64,000 bases of DNA from Parcubacteria group bacterium. GTDB taxonomy: Bacteria; Patescibacteriota; Minisyncoccia; Phycocordibacterales; WO2-35-19. The stretch covers positions 977 through 64,976 of the forward strand of contig JAAZAU010000008.1 of assembly GCA_012514175.1 (NCBI GenBank), written 5' to 3'. Every line of letters starts with the position of its first letter. Within the stretch, counting starts at the first letter, position 1. Shown here in pieces: positions 56,410 to 64,000 of this stretch. Position numbers and translations under genes: made by a program. The notes beneath the pieces are model-generated. The model worked only from the letters and a program-made list of their open reading frames with translations. It had not been told where the DNA came from and ran no database searches.

Positions 56410-56634
56410 TAATGCACTAAGTGCGTCTCTTAATCGCTATTGATTTGATTAATTTTCCAAAACATCTTTAGGTTTTGTAAACGCTCATTGAGCGGTCAGT
56501 TAATCTAACTGACAAGGATATCATCCCTTTTCAACACTGATCCAGTGTTGCACAAAACAAAAATTGTTTGGGAAAATTTCACTATTTCCAAAAACGATTA
56601 AGAGAAAGAACAATCCAGTCCCCTGAATTAAAAA

Positions 56635-57303
56635 CTAAATGGGGACTTCAAAATAACAGTAGGAAGCGTTGGCGACAAAATCACCACCATCCCCTACCAT
56701 TTGAGCCTGAAAGACAGATTGAGATTCTGTCTCTGAGACTCCGATTATTCTCTCTGGAGTGGAGGAGAAATTCCCCTCCTCATCCTTCAAGAATTCGTGG
56801 ACGAAAAGGTTACCCTCTTCGTCCTCCGCCAGGATGGGCGCGAGTTTGTCAACCACCGCCACCCGAACCTCTCCGCCAAACTTCCAGTCAATATAACCGG
56901 CTCGTTTGGCGATATTTGTCGCTTGTGCCTCAGCCCACTGAGTCACAGCGACCATGTCAGTCACATCACCCTCAAACCGATACTTCTTAAAAGTTTGGGG
57001 TGAGGCAAGCAACTGTTTGGTGAAGGAACTTACGTAACCTCCACCAAGACCAATGGTTGCCACTGACAACCTCTCGGTCTTTGTAACCCCCGTTTCCGTT
57101 TTTGCAACAACGGGAGTCACCGGGCCGGTAGCGGTAACTTCTGTTGAGACTTCCATTCTGGTGGAAGCCTCCGCTGTCACCACCAAAAGCTGTTTTCTCA
57201 GCTGGTGGTTCTGGACGGCAACCGTCACAACCATTGCTACCATAACAATGTTGGCAACGGCGCGCGTCCAGATTTTCATCCGAGACAAAAAACTTGCTCT
57301 CAT
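56635..57303 (-). CDS. Hypothetical exported protein (GC-rich island)
   Basis: N-terminal hydrophobic anchor. No recognised domain. The fourth gene of a co-directional GC-rich cluster. Confidence 0.5.
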   Translation of the reverse strand: MRASFLSRMKIWTRAVANIVMVAMVVTVAVQNHQLRKQLLVVTAEASTRMEVSTEVTATGPVTPVVAKTETGVTKTERLSVATIGLGGGYVSSFTKQLLASPQTFKKYRFEGDVTDMVAVTQWAEAQATNIAKRAGYIDWKFGGEVRVAVVDKLAPILAEDEEGNLFVHEFLKDEEGNFSSTPERIIGVSETESQSVFQAQMVGDGGDFVANASYCYFEVPI

Positions 57304-58205
57304 CTCCCTCCTCCCTCAAAAAAAATTGTTTCTTTCCTATCTCTATCGGCCATTTTAAAAAAAATAGGCCGATAATAAGTGCTTCGCTTTTCACCAACGA
57401 AGCACCTTTTTAGATTCCTGACAATCTCTTTCGGACTGTTTCCGTGCACAGTCTTCCAAACAGTGCTCTTGGAAACGTCCATCAGAGGAATGGGAGAGAG
57501 CCAAACCCCATTGGTGTCTTTTCTGACCTCAACCAAATATCGGAGGTCCTTTTCCGCATCAGACACCTGGATAAATTGCTTTTCTCCCTTGGAAACAAAA
57601 GGGAAATTTAATATATCCTTCCTGTTTCCGTTTATTTTTTTTGGAGGGTCGTTGCGGACAATGAGCCTACTAAAAAAATAGACTCCCAGCCCGACAACCA
57701 AAACCCAGAGAAAGACCACTCCCCATTTGTTCCTCACGGACATCTGGGACATCTGGGGCATCTGAGGAGGCGCCTCTGCTTCTGCCTCTGCCACCAAAGT
57801 GCAAATCACTCTGATGGCTCTGTTATTTCCCGCATCACCAACTGTCCTGGTGGTGATGTTGTTCGGAGGAATAACAGCGAGCTTCTCGCTGATGAAGGCT
57901 TTAGCTTGCAATGCCCTCCTGTCTCCGAGGTCTTGGTTCAGATTTCGGCTTCCCGTGGTGTCGGTGTAGCCGATAACGGAAATCCGAATCTGCTCTTCTC
58001 CAACTTTTTTTTGGAGAAGTTTTTGGATCGGAGAGATAACCCTCCTTTCCAAATTTTTGGACACTTCGCCACCGTCCACGATAGCGAATTGCCCAACCTC
58101 AAATCCAACAACAACCTCATCAATTATGGTTTCGGTTTTTGGAGCCGAAACCAAACTCATTGACGAAAAAGAAAAAAATGCGAACAACCAGAAAAATTTT
58201 TTCAT
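57300..58205 (-). CDS. OmpA/MotB-like domain protein with internal TM segment
   Basis: Signal peptide MKKFFWLFAFFSF. OmpA-C-like segment ISVIGYTDTTGSRNLNQDLGDRRALQAKAF. Internal TM VVFLWVLVVGLGVYFF. ATG 58205. Confidence 0.6.
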   Translation of the reverse strand: MKKFFWLFAFFSFSSMSLVSAPKTETIIDEVVVGFEVGQFAIVDGGEVSKNLERRVISPIQKLLQKKVGEEQIRISVIGYTDTTGSRNLNQDLGDRRALQAKAFISEKLAVIPPNNITTRTVGDAGNNRAIRVICTLVAEAEAEAPPQMPQMSQMSVRNKWGVVFLWVLVVGLGVYFFSRLIVRNDPPKKINGNRKDILNFPFVSKGEKQFIQVSDAEKDLRYLVEVRKDTNGVWLSPIPLMDVSKSTVWKTVHGNSPKEIVRNLKRCFVGEKRSTYYRPIFFKMADRDRKETIFFEGGGR

Positions 58206-58308
58206 CTCTCCCCCCCCTTGCCCATCGGGCAAAAAAGTCTACCGCACTGATCCAGCACAGTAGATAAAAGAAGTTTCTGGAGGGCCCCACAGGAGCCCCC
58301 CAGGAGAA

Positions 58309-59607
58309 TTATTCACCAGCAGATGATTGCCCAACAACACGGACAATCACCCTCCGATCCTGAGGATTGTGTTCGGAGCGGGATTTGTCCTCGCTTAGCG
58401 AGACAAATTGCTTCATATTCTCTGCCCCGAACTCAACCAGCTGGTTATAAACCTTCTTGGCGCGACTTCGCGCCAAGACCGCATTATATTCCGGCGACCC
58501 CGCAGAGCAGGCGTGTCCCTCCACTTGTAGAAGGCACGCGCTTTTGCTGCGCTCTGCGAAGTTTTTGATCTCTGACAAGTATTCCGACTTTATGTCGGAC
58601 TTGTCGAAATCAAAAAAAACTTCAAGTGGAGGCAGATTGCATTCCTCCACTGACTCCCGAACCGCGACAGGTTCCGCCACCGCTTGGGCAACGGTGGGAG
58701 TCGGTAGGGGTTGAGGTTCTGGCTTGCTCATATTTGCTATGAGCGCCTTAGCCACCTCTTCCCAAGGGTTGACTTCCGGCTCCGCCGGTTGCGAAGGGGC
58801 CGAAACGATTTCCACTTCCTTTTCAGGAGGCGGTTTCGGTCCTTCAATTGGCCCGTCATTCATACAGTAAAAACTGTATTCGGGCCAATCTTCTGGGGAG
58901 GTTATTGATGTTCCTTTGCCATAACCCAAGGCAGAGCCAAGGGCTACGTCATTGGAACCGTTCACGCTAGCCCCTCCCAAACTCAAACCTTTGATGCTGG
59001 TTTGAGTTTTGGAAGCCATAATAACCTTCCCGAACATAGCAACCCGGTTGGCGCCGGTTTGCTTCTTGCACTCTTTGGCACCTTCAGCCTGGAATCGGCT
59101 TTCGGGCCAAAGAGGCAACCCTTTGACGGTGACCTCGCCCAGGATTTGGTCTTGGATGACCGCATCCTGGATAAAGGCCAGCTTGCCGGGGTTGTAGTCC
59201 ATAAATTCTACAAACCCCTTGTCCTTTACCTTTCCTTTCTGGTATCGGACAAAGAAGACTCTCTTTTCCCTGGCCAAATGTTTTACAGGGAAAAGAATGT
59301 CGGACAAGCCGACCCCGTCTCCCTTTGCCATTTGGTTGATCTGTTCAACAGACCAACGTTTTGCCAAAGGGACACTTTGGCTTTCCTTACTCATCCCAGA
59401 ACTCCCAGGTCCTGGAATGACGTAAGTGGAAGGTCCCGCCGGCATTGCCGGCGAAAACTGCCTTGGGATCCCACCGCCCCCACTACTACTACCGGGATTA
59501 TTGTAAATAATCGCGGTAGCTTCGCTAGTGGCACTTGCCAACGGATCTGCTTCTTGAGCAAATCCAAACGTTGGCAAAAGAAGCAAAACACTGAAAATCT
59601 TTTTCAT
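58309..59607 (-). CDS. OmpA-family protein (signal peptide, Gly/Pro-rich linker, C-terminal OmpA-like peptidoglycan-associating domain)
   Basis: Signal peptide plus AQEA. C-terminus: FFDFDKSDIKSEY...VEGHACSAGSPEYNAVLARSRAKKV...RRVIV. Confidence 0.7.
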   Translation of the reverse strand: MKKIFSVLLLLPTFGFAQEADPLASATSEATAIIYNNPGSSSGGGGIPRQFSPAMPAGPSTYVIPGPGSSGMSKESQSVPLAKRWSVEQINQMAKGDGVGLSDILFPVKHLAREKRVFFVRYQKGKVKDKGFVEFMDYNPGKLAFIQDAVIQDQILGEVTVKGLPLWPESRFQAEGAKECKKQTGANRVAMFGKVIMASKTQTSIKGLSLGGASVNGSNDVALGSALGYGKGTSITSPEDWPEYSFYCMNDGPIEGPKPPPEKEVEIVSAPSQPAEPEVNPWEEVAKALIANMSKPEPQPLPTPTVAQAVAEPVAVRESVEECNLPPLEVFFDFDKSDIKSEYLSEIKNFAERSKSACLLQVEGHACSAGSPEYNAVLARSRAKKVYNQLVEFGAENMKQFVSLSEDKSRSEHNPQDRRVIVRVVGQSSAGE

Positions 59608-59661
59608 TGGATCCTCCCTTTCTGGGAGCGACGGTTTTTACCGTCGCCCCCAAACATTAGG

Positions 59662-60504
59662 TTAATCGCAAACAGAGCCTCCGCAGGCCCCGCCGTTGAC
59701 GACGGAACTGGAGGCATTGTGGGCTCCAGCGGACATAAAGTCCGCGCCCAAATTAATGAAGGAATCCCCCACACTCTGCAGGGATCCCGAAAGGGGCCCC
59801 GCGTCACTGGCTTTGTAATTGGCAAAGCCATTGAAACCAGCGACGCCAGAAAAATTTTGGTCAGCTCCTCCCATCTGAATCCAGGAGCCAACCGCACCGA
59901 CTCCCTCCACAAAGGAGGTAGTTCCGCCGGCCGTGTTGGGGGTTACTATGGCAAAGGATGAATCCTTTGTCATAGCATTCGCCTTCTTGGAAACGGCGTC
60001 CCCCGAAAGCGATACGGCTGTATTGCCATTGGCACCAGCCTTGCCGCTATCACTCACAGAGCCGGTTCCGGAGATAAAGTTTCCATAACCGGCGAGGGTA
60101 TTCCCCCAGCCGCTAGAAAACTCATCCCCCCTGTTGATAGAAGCCTCGTTAAACTGATTAACGAGACCCTCCGCCCCAACCTCGGCCTTGGTTGTTCCCT
60201 TAGCCCACGATTGAAACTCGTTGTAGGCTTTGGAAAACGACGATGCCGAGTCGGCACCCTGATGGCTAGCCCCAGTGGACCAACCATTGTTCAGGGTGTC
60301 TCCAGAGGCATCACAAGGACCCTCGGAGTTGAAAAATGAGAACGACACCTCGCTGGCAATGCCGCCAGTAAATTCGTTCCCATGCTCCCAGGATGTCTCC
60401 TGGAAAGCGTTCCCGGACGCCTGCTGGGTAGGAGCGGCCTCCTGAGCCAGAGCCATCCCCCCAGCGAACACTCCTAAAAACAGGCAAAACAACAAATTTC
60501 TCAT
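59662..60504 (-). CDS. Secreted Gly/Ser/Ala/Asn-rich protein
   Basis: Signal peptide (ALA-QEA). Low-complexity G/S/N-rich sequence with recurring (N/S)GW motifs. C-terminal CGGSVCD. Strong SD aaggagg. Confidence 0.55.
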   Translation of the reverse strand: MRNLLFCLFLGVFAGGMALAQEAAPTQQASGNAFQETSWEHGNEFTGGIASEVSFSFFNSEGPCDASGDTLNNGWSTGASHQGADSASSFSKAYNEFQSWAKGTTKAEVGAEGLVNQFNEASINRGDEFSSGWGNTLAGYGNFISGTGSVSDSGKAGANGNTAVSLSGDAVSKKANAMTKDSSFAIVTPNTAGGTTSFVEGVGAVGSWIQMGGADQNFSGVAGFNGFANYKASDAGPLSGSLQSVGDSFINLGADFMSAGAHNASSSVVNGGACGGSVCD

Positions 60505-61027: not shown

Positions 61028-61474
61028 TCATTTCTCAACTAATCTTTTGAGTTCATCTATAACAGCTTTCTCCCAATATTTCATAGAGTACCAACTAATC
61101 AATGGTTTAGCGACAACACGAAGCCAAGGTTTACGAATAAAAACTTTATACGTGTAGTTTATTACAGTCTCCTCCTGATTTTCAGAAAGTAAAAATTCCT
61201 CATGACCAGAAATGCCGAGTTTAGAATTTTCGTTATCTGAAATAAAACCTCTCTCAGGAAGTATTTGGTATTTCATTTTTACTAAAAATTTTTGACCAAA
61301 CGACTTGACGATCGCTTCTATTTTCAAATTGTTTCCATCACGATTTATAACTCGTATAGATTCCGCGACTCTGGGAAAATATTCAGGCCATTTTTCAAAA
61401 TCCGTCATAATGGTAAAAACTTTTTTAAGGGGTGCTTTGATTAACCATGAGGCACGAAGAGTAATATTTTTCAT
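61028..61474 (-). CDS. SRPBCC (Bet v1/START-like, polyketide cyclase/RatA-like) family protein
   Basis: 148 aa with the SRPBCC pattern (W.ikAP...VF.....E.WPEYFP...). Confidence 0.55.
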   Translation of the reverse strand: MKNITLRASWLIKAPLKKVFTIMTDFEKWPEYFPRVAESIRVINRDGNNLKIEAIVKSFGQKFLVKMKYQILPERGFISDNENSKLGISGHEEFLLSENQEETVINYTYKVFIRKPWLRVVAKPLISWYSMKYWEKAVIDELKRLVEK

Positions 61475-61563
61475 ACAAAAATATTACCACAAAATTGATC
61501 AATTTTTCGTATAAACAAAAAAGAATTTAACACATTGCACAATGACTCCAATTTCTGCTATAA

Positions 61564-61637
61564 TGCAAAGTATTCCGCGGTGGCGCAGCGGTAGCGCAGT
61601 CGCCTGTTAAGCGATTGGTCGTAGGTTCGAATCCTAC
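61564..61637 (+). tRNA. tRNA-Asn (anticodon GUU)
   Basis: Acceptor UCCGCGG/CCGCGGA (U1:A72 as in E. coli tRNA-Asn). D-stem GCGC/GCGC. Anticodon stem GUCGC/GCGAU with loop CUGUUAA. T-arm GUAGG-UUCGAAU-CCUAC. Confidence 0.8.
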
Positions 61638-63130
61638 CCGCGGAGCAAAGTAGGATGGTTAGACGCTTTTGCGATGCAAGAAAACGGTTCTCGCATTGTA
61701 AATACTGGCTTTTTACCATCAACAACAGAGTTCTGAAGTAGAAACTTCATAAACTGATTTTTTTCAGCTACTTCCGAACTTTCAAATATCTCTTCAGCTT
61801 TTTGAGCTATATTCAGTACCGTTTTAGCAACGATATGGTAGTTTTCGTCTGCTTGTGTAAGCTCATCTTTTTGGATGCCTAAATCGTACTGCTGTTCCTT
61901 GTACTCTTTTAGTTTTGCGTCATATATGTCCTTAGTAATACTACCGTCAGCAAGCAAGTCAAAAGACCTGCTTATTCTGTTTTGGATTTCATCGTACTTC
62001 TGATTGATTTCTTTTATTTTCTTCGTGTGGTACAGAGCCTGATTTTCGTGGTTCTTTTTGAGATACGTTACAAGCTGAGCTATCTGCTCGTCATCCAGTT
62101 TTATTTGCCCCAAAAATCGCTTTATAGGCTTTAGAAGCACCTCTTCCTTCACATACTCTCGCTTGCAGTTTTTCTTCCCATTTGAACAACTGTAATAGAT
62201 ATATTTGCCTTTCTTCAGCTCTGCACTCATTGAGCATCCACATCTCGCACACTTCAGAAGTCCACTAAATATAAACTCCTTTCTTCCAGTGGTTTTTATT
62301 GGATTACTGTTCTTCTTTTCTAATTCATCCTGAACCTTAAGAAACAGCTTCTTAGTAATAAGTGGCTGGTATCTATGTTCGTAGTACTCATCATATTTCT
62401 TAGAATATGCCATTCCATAGTAGAAAGTGTTTTTGAGAATGTTGTGAATAACACTTTGATACAAAGGTTTGCCGTGTGCTGTTTTTATCTTTCTTTTAGA
62501 CATTTCATCAGCCAACTTCCGGCAAGAGTAATTACCTGTTGAGTATTTTTCAAAAAGCTCAACAACAATATGGCTCATCTCAGGATGCGGAATAATATCC
62601 TTTCTAAGGCGCTTATTCTCGTCCAGAGGCACATTTTTATAGCCAAATGGTATTCCGCCTATCCATTCGCCTTTCTTGCGTTTCTGCTCAAAAGCTCGTT
62701 TTACATTGTCGCTGATAGCATCGGAATAGTACTTTGCTAAACCTAAACTCATTCCAAATTGAAATTTCTCAACTGCGGACATTTTGGAGTTTATGATTTG
62801 TCCATCCGAGACAAAATGAAGCTCAATTTCATCAGCAACCGCTTTTTCATAAAGTAGTGATACTCTCTTATCAAAAACATTTCTTGAAAGCCTATCTACC
62901 TTGTCAAAACAAATCGCAACCTTCCCTTTACTTTCTTTCAGGTACTCTAAAACCCTGTCAAACTCATCTCGCTTAACTTTGTAGGCACTTTCATCAAAGC
63001 TGAAGGTTTCGTCTATTTTGAAATCCTTTCTCTTACAGTAGTCCTCAATACGCCTAATTTGAGCTGGTAGCGAGTTACCGGCATCCTTTTGCTCTTCTGT
63101 TGATACTCTGGCTAATATTACTGCTTTCAT
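61634..63130 (-). CDS. Large serine recombinase (resolvase-domain integrase)
   Basis: N-terminal resolvase domain with the catalytic Ser in ARVSTEEQ, plus DRLSR. Recombinase domain and Cys-rich zinc ribbon CARCGCS...YYSCSNGKKNC. Coiled-coil C-terminus. The 3' end abuts or overlaps the tRNA-Asn 3' end. Confidence 0.9.
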   Translation of the reverse strand: MKAVILARVSTEEQKDAGNSLPAQIRRIEDYCKRKDFKIDETFSFDESAYKVKRDEFDRVLEYLKESKGKVAICFDKVDRLSRNVFDKRVSLLYEKAVADEIELHFVSDGQIINSKMSAVEKFQFGMSLGLAKYYSDAISDNVKRAFEQKRKKGEWIGGIPFGYKNVPLDENKRLRKDIIPHPEMSHIVVELFEKYSTGNYSCRKLADEMSKRKIKTAHGKPLYQSVIHNILKNTFYYGMAYSKKYDEYYEHRYQPLITKKLFLKVQDELEKKNSNPIKTTGRKEFIFSGLLKCARCGCSMSAELKKGKYIYYSCSNGKKNCKREYVKEEVLLKPIKRFLGQIKLDDEQIAQLVTYLKKNHENQALYHTKKIKEINQKYDEIQNRISRSFDLLADGSITKDIYDAKLKEYKEQQYDLGIQKDELTQADENYHIVAKTVLNIAQKAEEIFESSEVAEKNQFMKFLLQNSVVDGKKPVFTMREPFSCIAKASNHPTLLRG

Positions 63131-63133
63131 ACG

Positions 63134-64000
63134 CTAACTTATAAGCTTATCGTAAGCTTCAGTAAATTCTTTAGTGTCCTTTTTATTGAACAGTGGTAAG
63201 CCAATCAAGCTATAATCCTTGCCCTCTATTTTTAGGATTTTATTATCGGAATATTTCTCAGTAATCTTTTTAAGGAAATCATTCTTCCATTTATCAGCAT
63301 CCAAAAGGTTATCTCCTTTCGGTTCAATGAAAATCTGATAGTAGAGCTTTGATTTATCTTTTAGGAAAAGGATAAAGTCAGGCTGGAAACCCTGTCCGGT
63401 AGTGAAGTCATATATCTTGTACTGCTCTTCATTTCTTAACAGATACACCTCTTTATATTTACCTTGCAGATTGACTATAGTTTCTTGTATAAACTCAATC
63501 AGCCCTTTTTCCTCACTTGTTCCATAAAACTGGTCTAATACATACCAGTCCTGATATTTAAGTTCATCTTCAATTCGCTTACTTTCCTCATCTTTTTTCA
63601 CACTCTTTCTAACCTCTTCGTCAAAAAACTCTTGCAACTTGTACGCACTAAACTCAGTACCAATATGCGGATTGATGTTCTGCTTAAGCTCAATAAGCAA
63701 GGTGTCAAAAAACTTCACTAATACATCAAGCTTCTCTTTATTGCTTACTTCATCAATGCTCTTTTTGGTGGTAACAAGTTTGATTTCAAAATCTCCTACA
63801 ATCTTTTCTCTGAAATCCTCAATACTTTTTATTTGTAGCTCTTCCTTCAGTAGCTCAAACCTCAGCAAAGACTTATCGCTCTTTGCCTTTATGTTTATAG
63901 CTTTTTGGAAGATATGTTTTTCAAAATCTTTTACCTTTACTGGAATAGTTTTCTTGTTTTGTTCGTTTATATTCAAGCGTTCTGTATCAGCGTCATCGCT
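63134..64000 (-). CDS. Hypothetical protein (5'-partial; frame open to window end)
   Basis: Long minus-strand ORF immediately upstream of the recombinase. No recognised motif. Confidence 0.4.
   Translation of the reverse strand, partial: SDDADTERLNINEQNKKTIPVKVKDFEKHIFQKAINIKAKSDKSLLRFELLKEELQIKSIEDFREKIVGDFEIKLVTTKKSIDEVSNKEKLDVLVKFFDTLLIELKQNINPHIGTEFSAYKLQEFFDEEVRKSVKKDEESKRIEDELKYQDWYVLDQFYGTSEEKGLIEFIQETIVNLQGKYKEVYLLRNEEQYKIYDFTTGQGFQPDFILFLKDKSKLYYQIFIEPKGDNLLDADKWKNDFLKKITEKYSDNKILKIEGKDYSLIGLPLFNKKDTKEFTEAYDKLIS

What the first reader, a model, noticed from the sequence alone, without database searches (positions are those of the whole stretch)
61564..64000. Large serine recombinase abutting the tRNA-Asn 3' end: edge of an integrated element
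A 498-aa serine integrase (catalytic-Ser resolvase domain, recombinase domain, zinc ribbon, coiled coil) terminates within about 10 nt of, or overlapping, the 3' end of tRNA-Asn(GUU) on the opposite strand. Further minus-strand ORFs continue to the window edge. tRNA-adjacent integrases mark attL of prophages or integrative elements.

Coordinate note: by my line counting the stop codon falls at 61624-61626, 10 nt from the ORF-track end of 61634. The track coordinates are kept in the features list.
Basis: partly seen in the sequence, partly recalled or inferred. Interest (0 to 1): 0.55.

Follow-up and report, generated by a model that had tools for sequence, protein, structure and literature searches.

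The report
Serine-recombinase defence island in tRNA-Asn
The window ends inside a 9.5-kb mobile island that carries a restriction-modification system; it sits in the 3' end of tRNA-Asn, inserted by a large serine recombinase whose own gene is cut by the insertion, so the enzyme has one tail when integrated and another when excised.

Summary
A 498-aa large serine recombinase (LSR) gene (61634..63130, minus strand) converges on tRNA-Asn(GTT) (61574..61646). Its stop codon lies 13 nt inside the tRNA.

It is not a prophage. It is the attL end of a 9,489-bp island: unknown 519-aa protein, G2P-like rolling-circle Rep candidate, excisionase-type HTH, Type III Mod and Res, then the LSR.

Contigs 99.99% identical in the host flank show three states of this site: empty, this island, and a different 7.4-kb island with a 54%-identical LSR. 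The junctions place strand exchange inside 5 bp, GGAGC (61642-61646, tRNA nt 70-74). There is no long direct repeat.

The attP core lies inside the LSR reading frame. Integration removes the last 34 codons to the far end of the island. That detached piece is conserved across the family (pN/pS 0.28). It is joined to the LSR again in one apparently circular 9.2-kb contig and in tandem arrays.

The family is large (at least 2,493 protein clusters), mostly in Patescibacteria-labelled MAGs. It nearly always sits on a tRNA 3' end and mostly carries restriction-modification cargo. I found no description of it. I rate it a new variant of a known kind.

The parts
61574..61646 (+). tRNA-Asn(GTT), the integration target. 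It is intact after integration. Position 75 now reads A (GGAGCAA) instead of the empty-site C (GGAGCCA).
   Evidence: ARAGORN; Rfam RF00005, 70.9 bits; empty-site sequence in L062. Other host tRNAs also lack an encoded CCA.
61642..61646 (.). Common core GGAGC (GCTCC on the LSR strand), tRNA nt 70-74. Strand exchange occurred within these 5 bp.
   Evidence: Comparison of attB (L062), attL (window/L002/L063) and attR (L002/L063). The base 3' of the core (61647) differs between attL (element-derived) and attB/attR, which sets one limit. The first base on the other side of the core sets the other limit.
61634..63130 (-). Large serine recombinase, integrated (3'-truncated) form: residues 1-496 from the element, then R497-G498 and the stop read from the antisense of the tRNA.
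   Evidence: Pfam; NCBIfam and PHROG integrase hits; the reconstructed full-length ORF is 530 aa.
61647..64000 (.). Element DNA present in the window: the attL-proximal 2.35 kb of a 9,489-bp island. The rest lies beyond the window and the contig end.
   Evidence: L002 is 100% identical to window 61528-64000 and carries the whole island; core-to-core length. Host homology of the empty-site contig stops at 61651.
63134..64000 (-). C-terminal 288 codons of the Type III restriction Res subunit (901 aa in L002). It ends 3 nt upstream of the LSR start, so the two are probably co-transcribed.
   Evidence: Pfam ResIII on the full protein.

Best explanation
The window ends inside a small integrative island of 9,489 bp. 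A large serine recombinase inserted it into the 3' end of tRNA-Asn.

Shown:
- The same host occurs with the site empty, with this island, and with a different 7.4-kb island of the same family.
- The junctions share only GCTCC. The exchange therefore took place within tRNA nt 70-74. The island supplies the nucleotides downstream of that point, so the tRNA stays whole.
- The attP core lies inside the 3' end of the LSR reading frame. In the integrated state the gene ends after residue 496 with two tRNA-antisense codons (RG, then stop). The last 34 codons (PLQDALRTLNWAKIKQELEFSSIVSFFPNLALQN) sit at the opposite end of the island with no start codon of their own.

Inferred:
- Excision to a circle rejoins the two parts into a 530-aa protein. 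That full-length protein, made only from the circle or from tandem copies, carries out attP x attB integration.
- The truncated chromosomal form, together with the conserved 60-aa excisionase-family HTH protein as the likely directionality factor, carries out excision.
- The conserved 373-aa protein with a filamentous-phage G2P-like fold nicks and replicates (or mobilises) the circle.
- The Type III restriction-modification genes are cargo. They pay for, or enforce, the island's maintenance.
For: Site and junctions:
- Empty site versus two islands in hosts 99.99% identical over 10.6 kb.
- Exact att sequences.
- Reconstructed ORFs of 530 and 532 aa.

The detached C-terminal piece:
- It was found at the far end of the element, or fused to an LSR, in 21 loci.
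- It is 68% identical between the two islands of this host, against 54% for the whole protein.
- pN/pS is 0.28 over 10 pairs, and 0.31 for codons 14-36, which lie beyond any plausible attP arm.
- A continuous LSR-plus-extension ORF occurs in L039, a 9,155-bp unit with a 75-nt terminal overlap, apparently circular.
- It also occurs in the tandem arrays L030, L034 and L056.
- About 10% of the best 120 database homologues carry it. The others mostly end just after the core with tRNA-antisense tails such as LRG or LRGQDSNL.

Conserved module:
- A p373 homologue is present in 41 loci and the HTH_17 gene in 39.
- The HTH protein matches TIGR01764 'excisionase' at 3e-12.
- The p373 model has pLDDT 87. 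Its BFVD matches reach probability 1.0 and include an inovirus G2P (E 2.7e-5, TM 0.46-0.48). Pfam PF05144 matches 3 of 35 members.

Cargo:
- The census is dominated by DNA methylases and restriction enzymes.
Against: - No read-level or experimental evidence of excision, of an attP circle of this particular island, or of activity of either protein form.
- The empty allele could be ancestral rather than the product of excision.
- AlphaFold gives the extension only moderate to low confidence (pLDDT 39-75), so its structural role is unknown.
- The circularity of L039 rests on a 75-nt terminal overlap only.
- The Rep assignment rests on remote fold and profile similarity; PDB matches were weak.
- Four family copies (L036, L042, L045, L046) are pseudogenes, so some islands are decaying in place.
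- Tandem arrays imply recombination at a hybrid site. Canonical LSRs do not do this, and it is unexplained.
Confidence: 0.85

Rival explanations
1. It is the integrase end of a prophage, tailed or filamentous. The G2P-like protein is the phage replication initiator, and morphogenesis genes are simply unrecognised.
For: The p373 fold resembles inovirus G2P. Island size (5-10 kb) is in the inovirus range. Inoviruses with serine recombinases have been reported, as have inoviruses in the Candidate Phyla Radiation (PMC6813254). The 519-aa and 48-aa proteins have no known function.
Against: No pI/Zot ATPase, coat, capsid, tail or lysis family was found in this island or in the cargo census (66 ORFs from a further 15 islands plus this island's 519-aa protein). 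There is no close relative in IMG/VR; the best phage-collection matches are at most 36% identical, and the two I examined are chromosomal fragments with the LSR again reading into a tRNA. More than half of the island is a Type III restriction-modification system.
Confidence: 0.06
2. This copy is a fixed, immobile remnant. Integration cut the recombinase gene, the truncated 498-aa protein is inactive, and the island is now only a chromosomal restriction-modification locus.
For: The chromosomal gene lacks 34 conserved codons. Some family members are clearly decayed, with internal stops in L036, L042, L045 and L046. The empty allele may be ancestral.
Against: Both halves are intact and in frame in L002. 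The detached piece is under purifying selection across the family, which requires regular passage through the joined state. Two different islands and an empty site coexist in 99.99%-identical hosts. Assemblies break at the att sites, as in L009 and in the source contig itself.
Confidence: 0.1
3. The overlap of attP with the ORF is incidental. The far-end piece is conserved as DNA (attP arm or regulatory site), and the extension has no role in the protein.
For: The first ~10 codons of the extension coincide with where an attP arm would lie, and they are the most conserved (pN/pS 0.18). AlphaFold confidence for the extension is modest.
Against: Synonymous sites are highly diverged (pS 0.5-0.75) while the peptide is kept over all 34 codons, including codons 14-36, which lie 40-100 bp from the core. 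The length and the terminal ..LQN-stop recur in most of the 16 copies examined.
Confidence: 0.1

Closest known systems
Large serine recombinase (serine integrase) integrative elements: phiC31, Bxb1, A118, SPbeta, SCCmec CcrAB, Tn4451 TnpX
   Same: Same enzyme architecture: resolvase catalytic domain with Ser-10, recombinase domain, zinc ribbon and coiled coil. A short common core without long direct repeats. The recombinase gene sits at one end of the element. A small accessory protein is the likely directionality factor.
   Different: The target is the extreme 3' end of a tRNA gene rather than a protein-coding gene. The literature I read says serine integrases more commonly use coding regions and that tRNA sites are the habit of tyrosine integrases (PMC6109161, PMC9262239, PMC4383910). 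The attP core lies inside the recombinase ORF. Sequence identity to any annotated phage or plasmid LSR is at most 37%.
Integration-dependent immunity of mycobacteriophages BPs/Brujita (Broussard et al. 2013, as reviewed in PMC9262239)
   Same: attP lies inside the 3' end of an ORF, and the attB overlaps a tRNA 3' end. Integration removes a C-terminal tail, and the host sequence supplies a new stop. The protein therefore differs between the free and the integrated state.
   Different: There the split gene is the repressor, the tail is an ssrA-like degradation tag, and the recombinase is a tyrosine integrase with a 35-bp common core. Here the recombinase itself is split, it is a serine enzyme, the core is 5 bp, and the tail ends ..LQN with unknown function.
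SSV1-type archaeal integrases (my own knowledge, not checked here)
   Same: attP lies within the integrase gene, so integration into a tRNA gene partitions the integrase ORF.
   Different: Those are tyrosine recombinases, split into two large parts that are thought to be inactive. Here only the last 34 of 530 codons are removed.
Actinomycete integrative elements of the pSAM2 type (my own knowledge, not checked here)
   Same: A small element that integrates in a tRNA 3' end, excises with an Xis-type protein, and carries a rolling-circle Rep for replication of the circle.
   Different: pSAM2 uses a tyrosine integrase and an FtsK-like transfer protein. No transfer gene was recognised here. The host range is Patescibacteria and other uncultured phyla, by the records' own labels.

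Membership tests
Large serine recombinase (serine integrase) | N-terminal resolvase-type catalytic domain with the serine nucleophile | tested here: met
   PF00239, E 4e-23, residues 3-156. R8-V9-S10-T11-E12-E13-Q14 is invariant in 44 homologues.
Large serine recombinase (serine integrase) | Recombinase domain, then a zinc-ribbon domain with a coiled-coil insertion | tested here: met
   PF07508 and PF13408 above gathering score. Cys 294/297/315 are invariant and Cys 299 is nearly invariant (>=90%). The coiled coil (helices 347-426) appears in the AF2 model of a 75%-identical homologue.
Large serine recombinase (serine integrase) | Element bounded by attL/attR that share only a short core containing the crossover dinucleotide | tested here: met
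   5-bp core GCTCC, from attB, attL and attR of two islands in one host.
Large serine recombinase (serine integrase) | Catalyses attP x attB recombination; reversal needs a directionality factor | not testable with these tools
   Only indirect: site polymorphism, one apparently circular contig, and a conserved excisionase-family gene.
Prophage (tailed or filamentous) | Virion structural or morphogenesis genes (capsid, tail, or pI/Zot ATPase and coat proteins) | tested here: not met
   No such Pfam or PHROG family in the island or in the cargo census (66 ORFs from a further 15 islands plus this island's 519-aa protein). No close relative in IMG/VR.
Integrative conjugative element | Type IV secretion genes, coupling protein and relaxase | tested here: not met
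   None found. The islands are 5-10 kb. The G2P-like protein could in principle act as a relaxase, but that is untested.
Integrative rolling-circle plasmid (pSAM2-like) | Rolling-circle replication initiator on a tRNA-integrated, excisable element | tested here: inconclusive
   Fold match to inovirus G2P (probability 1.0, E 2.7e-5) and to an unnamed viral protein (E 4e-8). PF05144 in 3 of 35 members. Only a weak PDB match to RepDE. Catalytic residues were not mapped.
Integration-dependent ORF truncation (BPs-type switch) | attP core inside the 3' end of an ORF, so that the integrated and free forms encode different C-termini | tested here: met
Integration-dependent ORF truncation (BPs-type switch) | The removed tail is a degradation tag that changes protein stability | not testable with these tools
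   The tail ends in a conserved ..LQN and is predicted disordered over its last 13 residues. It is not ssrA-like.

The most novel reading that the evidence does not exclude
The C-terminal swap is a built-in state sensor for a serine recombinase. Only the circle (or a tandem copy) can make the 530-aa enzyme, and the 34-aa tail sets its direction or its lifetime. Examples would be a tail needed for attP x attB synapsis, or a tail that acts as a C-terminal degron giving a short burst of integrase. The chromosomal 498-aa form would then be the excision-competent, or the silent, form. This would be a new layer of directionality control in large serine recombinases, used by thousands of tRNA-targeting islands that spread restriction-modification systems through Patescibacteria.
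Probability: 0.3. Interest if true: 0.8.

Novelty: new variant of a known kind. Interest (0 to 1): 0.6.

Why it matters
Serine integrases are prized genome-engineering tools, and their directionality control is an active structural question. A large natural family whose attP sits inside the enzyme's own reading frame gives a ready-made experiment: the free and integrated states make different proteins, so the 530-aa and 498-aa forms can be compared on four short sites.

The family also breaks the usual rule that tRNA genes are targets of tyrosine integrases. Its target is a highly conserved 3' tRNA half, and related clades have switched to Asp, Gln, Arg, Leu and Glu tRNAs. This makes it a possible source of integrases with predictable landing sites in uncultured, hard-to-engineer bacteria.

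Biologically, it appears to be a recurrent vehicle for restriction-modification genes in Patescibacteria.

Tried and rejected
- Long direct repeat of the tRNA 3' end in the sister contig L002: none with up to 3 mismatches. The repeat is only 5 bp.
- The 17-20-nt tRNA-like repeats first seen in L014, L021, L042, L046 and L050. For L014, L021, L042 and L050 they lie 160-260 nt outside the true left end defined by the detached LSR piece; L046 was not re-examined. They are not the island boundary.
- Half-site symmetry of attP and attB. A GCGTC..GACGC pair in attP and a T-loop-like GTTCGTATC in this host's B arm both centre near the core. The spacings are odd-numbered, other hosts have only terminator hairpins in the B arm, and coding constraints confound the P' arm. 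I draw no conclusion.
I used a metagenome protein scan and a host-flank protein look-up instead.
- The 519-aa protein has no hit in Pfam, NCBIfam or PHROGs. Only its last ~100 residues are conserved, in 14 loci.
- AlphaFold of a full-length LSR, to see where the tail docks: the tail is helical but of low to moderate confidence, and no contact information was available.
- Literature: nine searches and seven papers read. None describes a tRNA-Asn-targeting LSR family or an attP inside an LSR ORF. This is absence in the held library, not proof of absence.
Full report
**1. The observation**

tRNA-Asn(GTT) lies at 61574..61646 on the plus strand by ARAGORN and at 61574..61645 by Rfam. A 498-aa ORF lies at 61634..63130 on the minus strand. 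It matches Pfam Resolvase, Recombinase and Zn_ribbon_recom, all above the gathering scores. It also matches the PHROG integrase family phrog_95 at 2e-87, and NCBIfam CcrB and XisF well below their cut-offs. It has the RVSTEEQ serine motif and the zinc-ribbon cysteines. An AlphaFold model of a 75%-identical homologue shows the long coiled coil.

The stop codon TAG is the reverse complement of 61634-61636, inside the T-stem of the tRNA.

The next minus-strand ORF, from 63134 to beyond the window, is the C-terminal part of a 901-aa Type III restriction Res subunit. It ends 3 nt before the LSR start.

**2. The whole element**

The source contig (JGI 3300026311, 68,212 bp) stops about 1.1 kb past the window. 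A second contig, L002, is 100% identical to window 61528-64000 and carries the rest of the element. Its genes in order are:
- a 519-aa protein and a 48-aa protein with no known family;
- a 373-aa protein (p373);
- a 60-aa HTH_17 protein that matches the excisionase family TIGR01764;
- Type III Mod (684 aa) and Res (901 aa);
- the LSR.

**3. Proof of insertion and exact ends**

I looked up the host gene next to the tRNA (window 61031-61474). This returned contigs 99.99% identical to the window over 10.6 kb, in three states:
- L062 (a 442-kb contig) has no element. serS and other housekeeping genes run up to the tRNA.
- The window and L002 carry island 1.
- L063 and L065 carry a different island at the same position: 7,439 bp, with a C5 methylase, a 362-aa protein, a Bro-N protein, an HTH_17 protein, a p373 homologue and an LSR 54% identical to the window's.

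The sites on the LSR strand are:
- attB: ..GTTAAACTTG GCTCC GCGGGTAGGATTCGAACC..
- attL of island 1: ..CATCCTACTTT GCTCC GCGGG..
- attR of island 1: ..GTTAAACTTG GCTCC CACTACAGGACGC..

The base before the core is T in attL but G in attB and attR. The base after the core is G in attB and attL but C in attR. Exchange therefore took place within GCTCC. This corresponds to GGAGC, window 61642-61646, tRNA nt 70-74.

Island 1 is 9,489 bp from core to core.

The empty site encodes ..GGAGCCA, and the occupied site encodes ..GGAGCAA. Three of the four other tRNAs in the window also lack an encoded CCA, so the host presumably adds it (inference).

**4. The recombinase gene crosses the attachment site**

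In the integrated state the ORF is residues 1-496, then R-G-stop read from the antisense of the tRNA. At the far end of the island, directly after the core and in frame, lies PLQDALRTLNWAKIKQELEFSSIVSFFPNLALQN followed by a stop. A stop codon lies just upstream in that frame, and I saw no start codon between it and the core. Joining the two ends gives a 530-aa ORF for island 1 and a 532-aa ORF for island 2.

The same peptide was found by tblastn in 21 loci, either at the far end of an element or fused to an LSR. Sixteen copies align without gaps. They share a consensus WLPLVD.FRT.NW..IK.EL.FSGI..LFP.L.LQN, and most stop at the same place.

Between the two islands of this host the piece is 68% identical, against 54% for the whole protein. 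Over ten pairs pN/pS is 0.28; it is 0.31 for codons 14-36, which lie 40-100 bp from the core. This is conservation of a protein, not only of a DNA site.

The uninterrupted ORF is seen in these places:
- L039, a contig with a 75-nt terminal overlap that closes to a 9,155-bp circle with a 531-aa LSR;
- L010, L029, L030, L035 and L040;
- the tandem arrays L030, L034 and L056, where the next element's left end completes the upstream LSR.

Among the best 120 of at least 2,493 database homologues, about 10% carry the extension (517-553 aa). The rest mostly end just after the core with tails such as LRG, LRR or LRGQDSNL. DSN is the antisense reading of the T-loop.

AlphaFold predicts the extension as two or three short helices of pLDDT 39-75, with the last 13 residues disordered.

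**5. A family trait**

I examined 44 loci from other genomes (L003-L046), with LSRs 44-75% identical over the best-matching segment. The outcomes were:

| Junction downstream of the LSR | Loci |
|---|---|
| ORF runs into tRNA-Asn | 22 |
| ORF runs into tRNA-Gln | 3 |
| ORF runs into tRNA-Asp | 2 |
| ORF runs into tRNA-Arg | 1 |
| tRNA-Asn 3' half followed by intron-like sequence | 5 |
| Joined form (LSR plus extension) | 6 |
| Contig ends at the site, or pseudogene | 5 |

ARAGORN misses the five intron-type genes. Rfam RF00028 confirms the intron in L011, L024 and L027. L005 and L017 are inferred from the conserved downstream sequence, because their records are cut or score below threshold.

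Even 34-36%-identical relatives, filed as unverified 'Bacteriophage sp.' scaffolds, read into tRNA-Leu and tRNA-Glu.

By record title the hosts are mostly Patescibacteria. There are also MAGs labelled Gammaproteobacteria, Bdellovibrionales, Dependentiae, Kapaibacterium and Maricaulis. I could not check these labels.

**6. Gene content**

The p373 homologue is present in 41 loci and the HTH_17 gene in 39, the latter at 60-80% identity. The order is constant: detached tail, variable minus-strand genes, a p519-like gene, p373, HTH, cargo, LSR.

The p373 family has no annotation (407 clusters at E <= 1e-5). Its AlphaFold model is confident (pLDDT 87). The model matches an unnamed viral protein (E 4e-8, TM 0.53) and an inovirus G2P replication protein (E 2.7e-5), both at probability 1.0. 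Pfam PF05144 (G2P N-terminal) matches 3 of 35 members. I read p373 as a rolling-circle initiator, or possibly a relaxase. This is an inference.

In a census of 66 ORFs (65 from 15 further islands, plus the 519-aa protein of island 1) the recognisable families are mostly restriction-modification:
- C5 methylase (6 ORFs), N6/N4 methylase, D12 methylase;
- BpuJI, Mrr and HpaII restriction enzymes, and Type III components;
- also DUF3800, a SocA/Panacea antitoxin and a Schlafen-type domain.

No virion, pI/Zot or type IV secretion family appears. There is no close relative in IMG/VR, and none above 37% identity in the phage or plasmid collections.

**7. How it most likely works**

Shown: the site polymorphism, the 5-bp core, the split ORF, protein-level selection on the detached piece, and the conserved LSR, HTH and G2P-like module.

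Inferred:
- The circle expresses the 530-aa enzyme, which integrates at the tRNA-Asn 3' end.
- The chromosomal 498-aa form, with the HTH protein as directionality factor, excises the island.
- p373 replicates or mobilises the circle.
- The restriction-modification cargo favours retention of the island.

What the tail does is open. It could serve site synapsis, direction, or protein lifetime. The widely conserved extreme C-terminus (..LQN) and its predicted disorder would suit a terminal recognition motif.

**8. Comparison with known systems**

The enzyme is a bona fide large serine recombinase. The unusual points are the tRNA 3'-end target and the attP inside the ORF. Papers I read state that tRNA sites are typical of tyrosine integrases and that serine integrases more commonly use coding regions (PMC6109161, PMC9262239, PMC4383910).

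The closest concept is the integration-dependent immunity of mycobacteriophage BPs. There attP lies in the repressor gene, and integration removes a degradation tag (PMC9262239). That system uses a tyrosine integrase, and the split gene is not the recombinase.

A large LSR survey does not mention tRNA targets (PMC10083194). A paper on Patescibacteria genomic islands with restriction-modification cargo mentions neither recombinases nor tRNAs (PMC12455944). I found no description of this family.

**9. Open points**

- Tandem arrays imply recombination at a hybrid site.
- Several loci carry a structured 130-230-nt segment, bounded by tRNA-like inverted copies and the core, just outside the left end.
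- L054 has tandem ~90-nt units, each ending in the core.

**Verdict**

The element is a new variant of a known kind. Interest is 0.6.

Noticed in passing
L024 2782-2997, L027 3480-3735, L011 11549-11790 (also likely L005, L017, L056, L059): The tRNA-Asn(GTT) gene next to the LSR is interrupted in the anticodon loop by a group I intron (Rfam RF00028, 57-84 bits). ARAGORN therefore reports no tRNA there. The window's own tRNA-Asn has no intron, although the near-identical island in L059 and the related island in L056 sit next to what look like intron-containing versions.
   Followed up: partly
L014 1806-2040; L021 3781-4000; L050 2117-2343; L042 2840-3000: Just outside the island's left end lies a 130-230-nt segment. 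It starts with a reverse-complement copy of the tRNA 3' end (17-20 nt) and ends with its inverted copy. Each copy of the core is preceded by a terminator-like hairpin. The L014 segment folds at -126.5 kcal/mol, z = -8.7, and matches no Rfam family. It could be a small RNA gene, a hitch-hiking mini-element, or a recombination scar.
   Followed up: partly
L054 1-410: Between an LSR 3' end and tRNA-Asn there are tandem ~90-nt units (partly masked by N). Each holds a hairpin and ends in the att core GGCTCC.
   Followed up: no
L030 10001-19735; L034 987-11579; L056 1-230: Two islands of the family sit head to tail at one tRNA-Asn, so the upstream LSR regains a full-length ORF from its neighbour's left end. 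This implies integration into a hybrid att site, which canonical serine integrases avoid.
   Followed up: partly
window 56500-60500: A block of about 52% G+C in a genome of about 33% G+C. It encodes OmpA-family and Gly/Ser/Ala/Pro-rich secreted proteins (ORFs 58309-59607 and 59662-60504, minus strand). In the otherwise near-identical strain L066, gene calls in the equivalent region differ (two genes of 177 and 103 aa where the window and L062 have 85-89-aa and 280-aa genes).
   Followed up: no
L069 (MT837677.1) and L070 (MT836653.1): Two GenBank records filed as unverified 'Bacteriophage sp.' from human faeces. They hold a distant LSR relative (34-36% identity) whose ORF reads into tRNA-Leu(CAG) or tRNA-Glu(TTC). 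They look like chromosomal fragments carrying the same kind of island, not phage genomes.
   Followed up: partly
L068 1697-1801 and 2261-2368: The C-terminal extension peptide occurs twice, once fused to the LSR and again about 560 nt downstream. This suggests a remnant of a further element.
   Followed up: no
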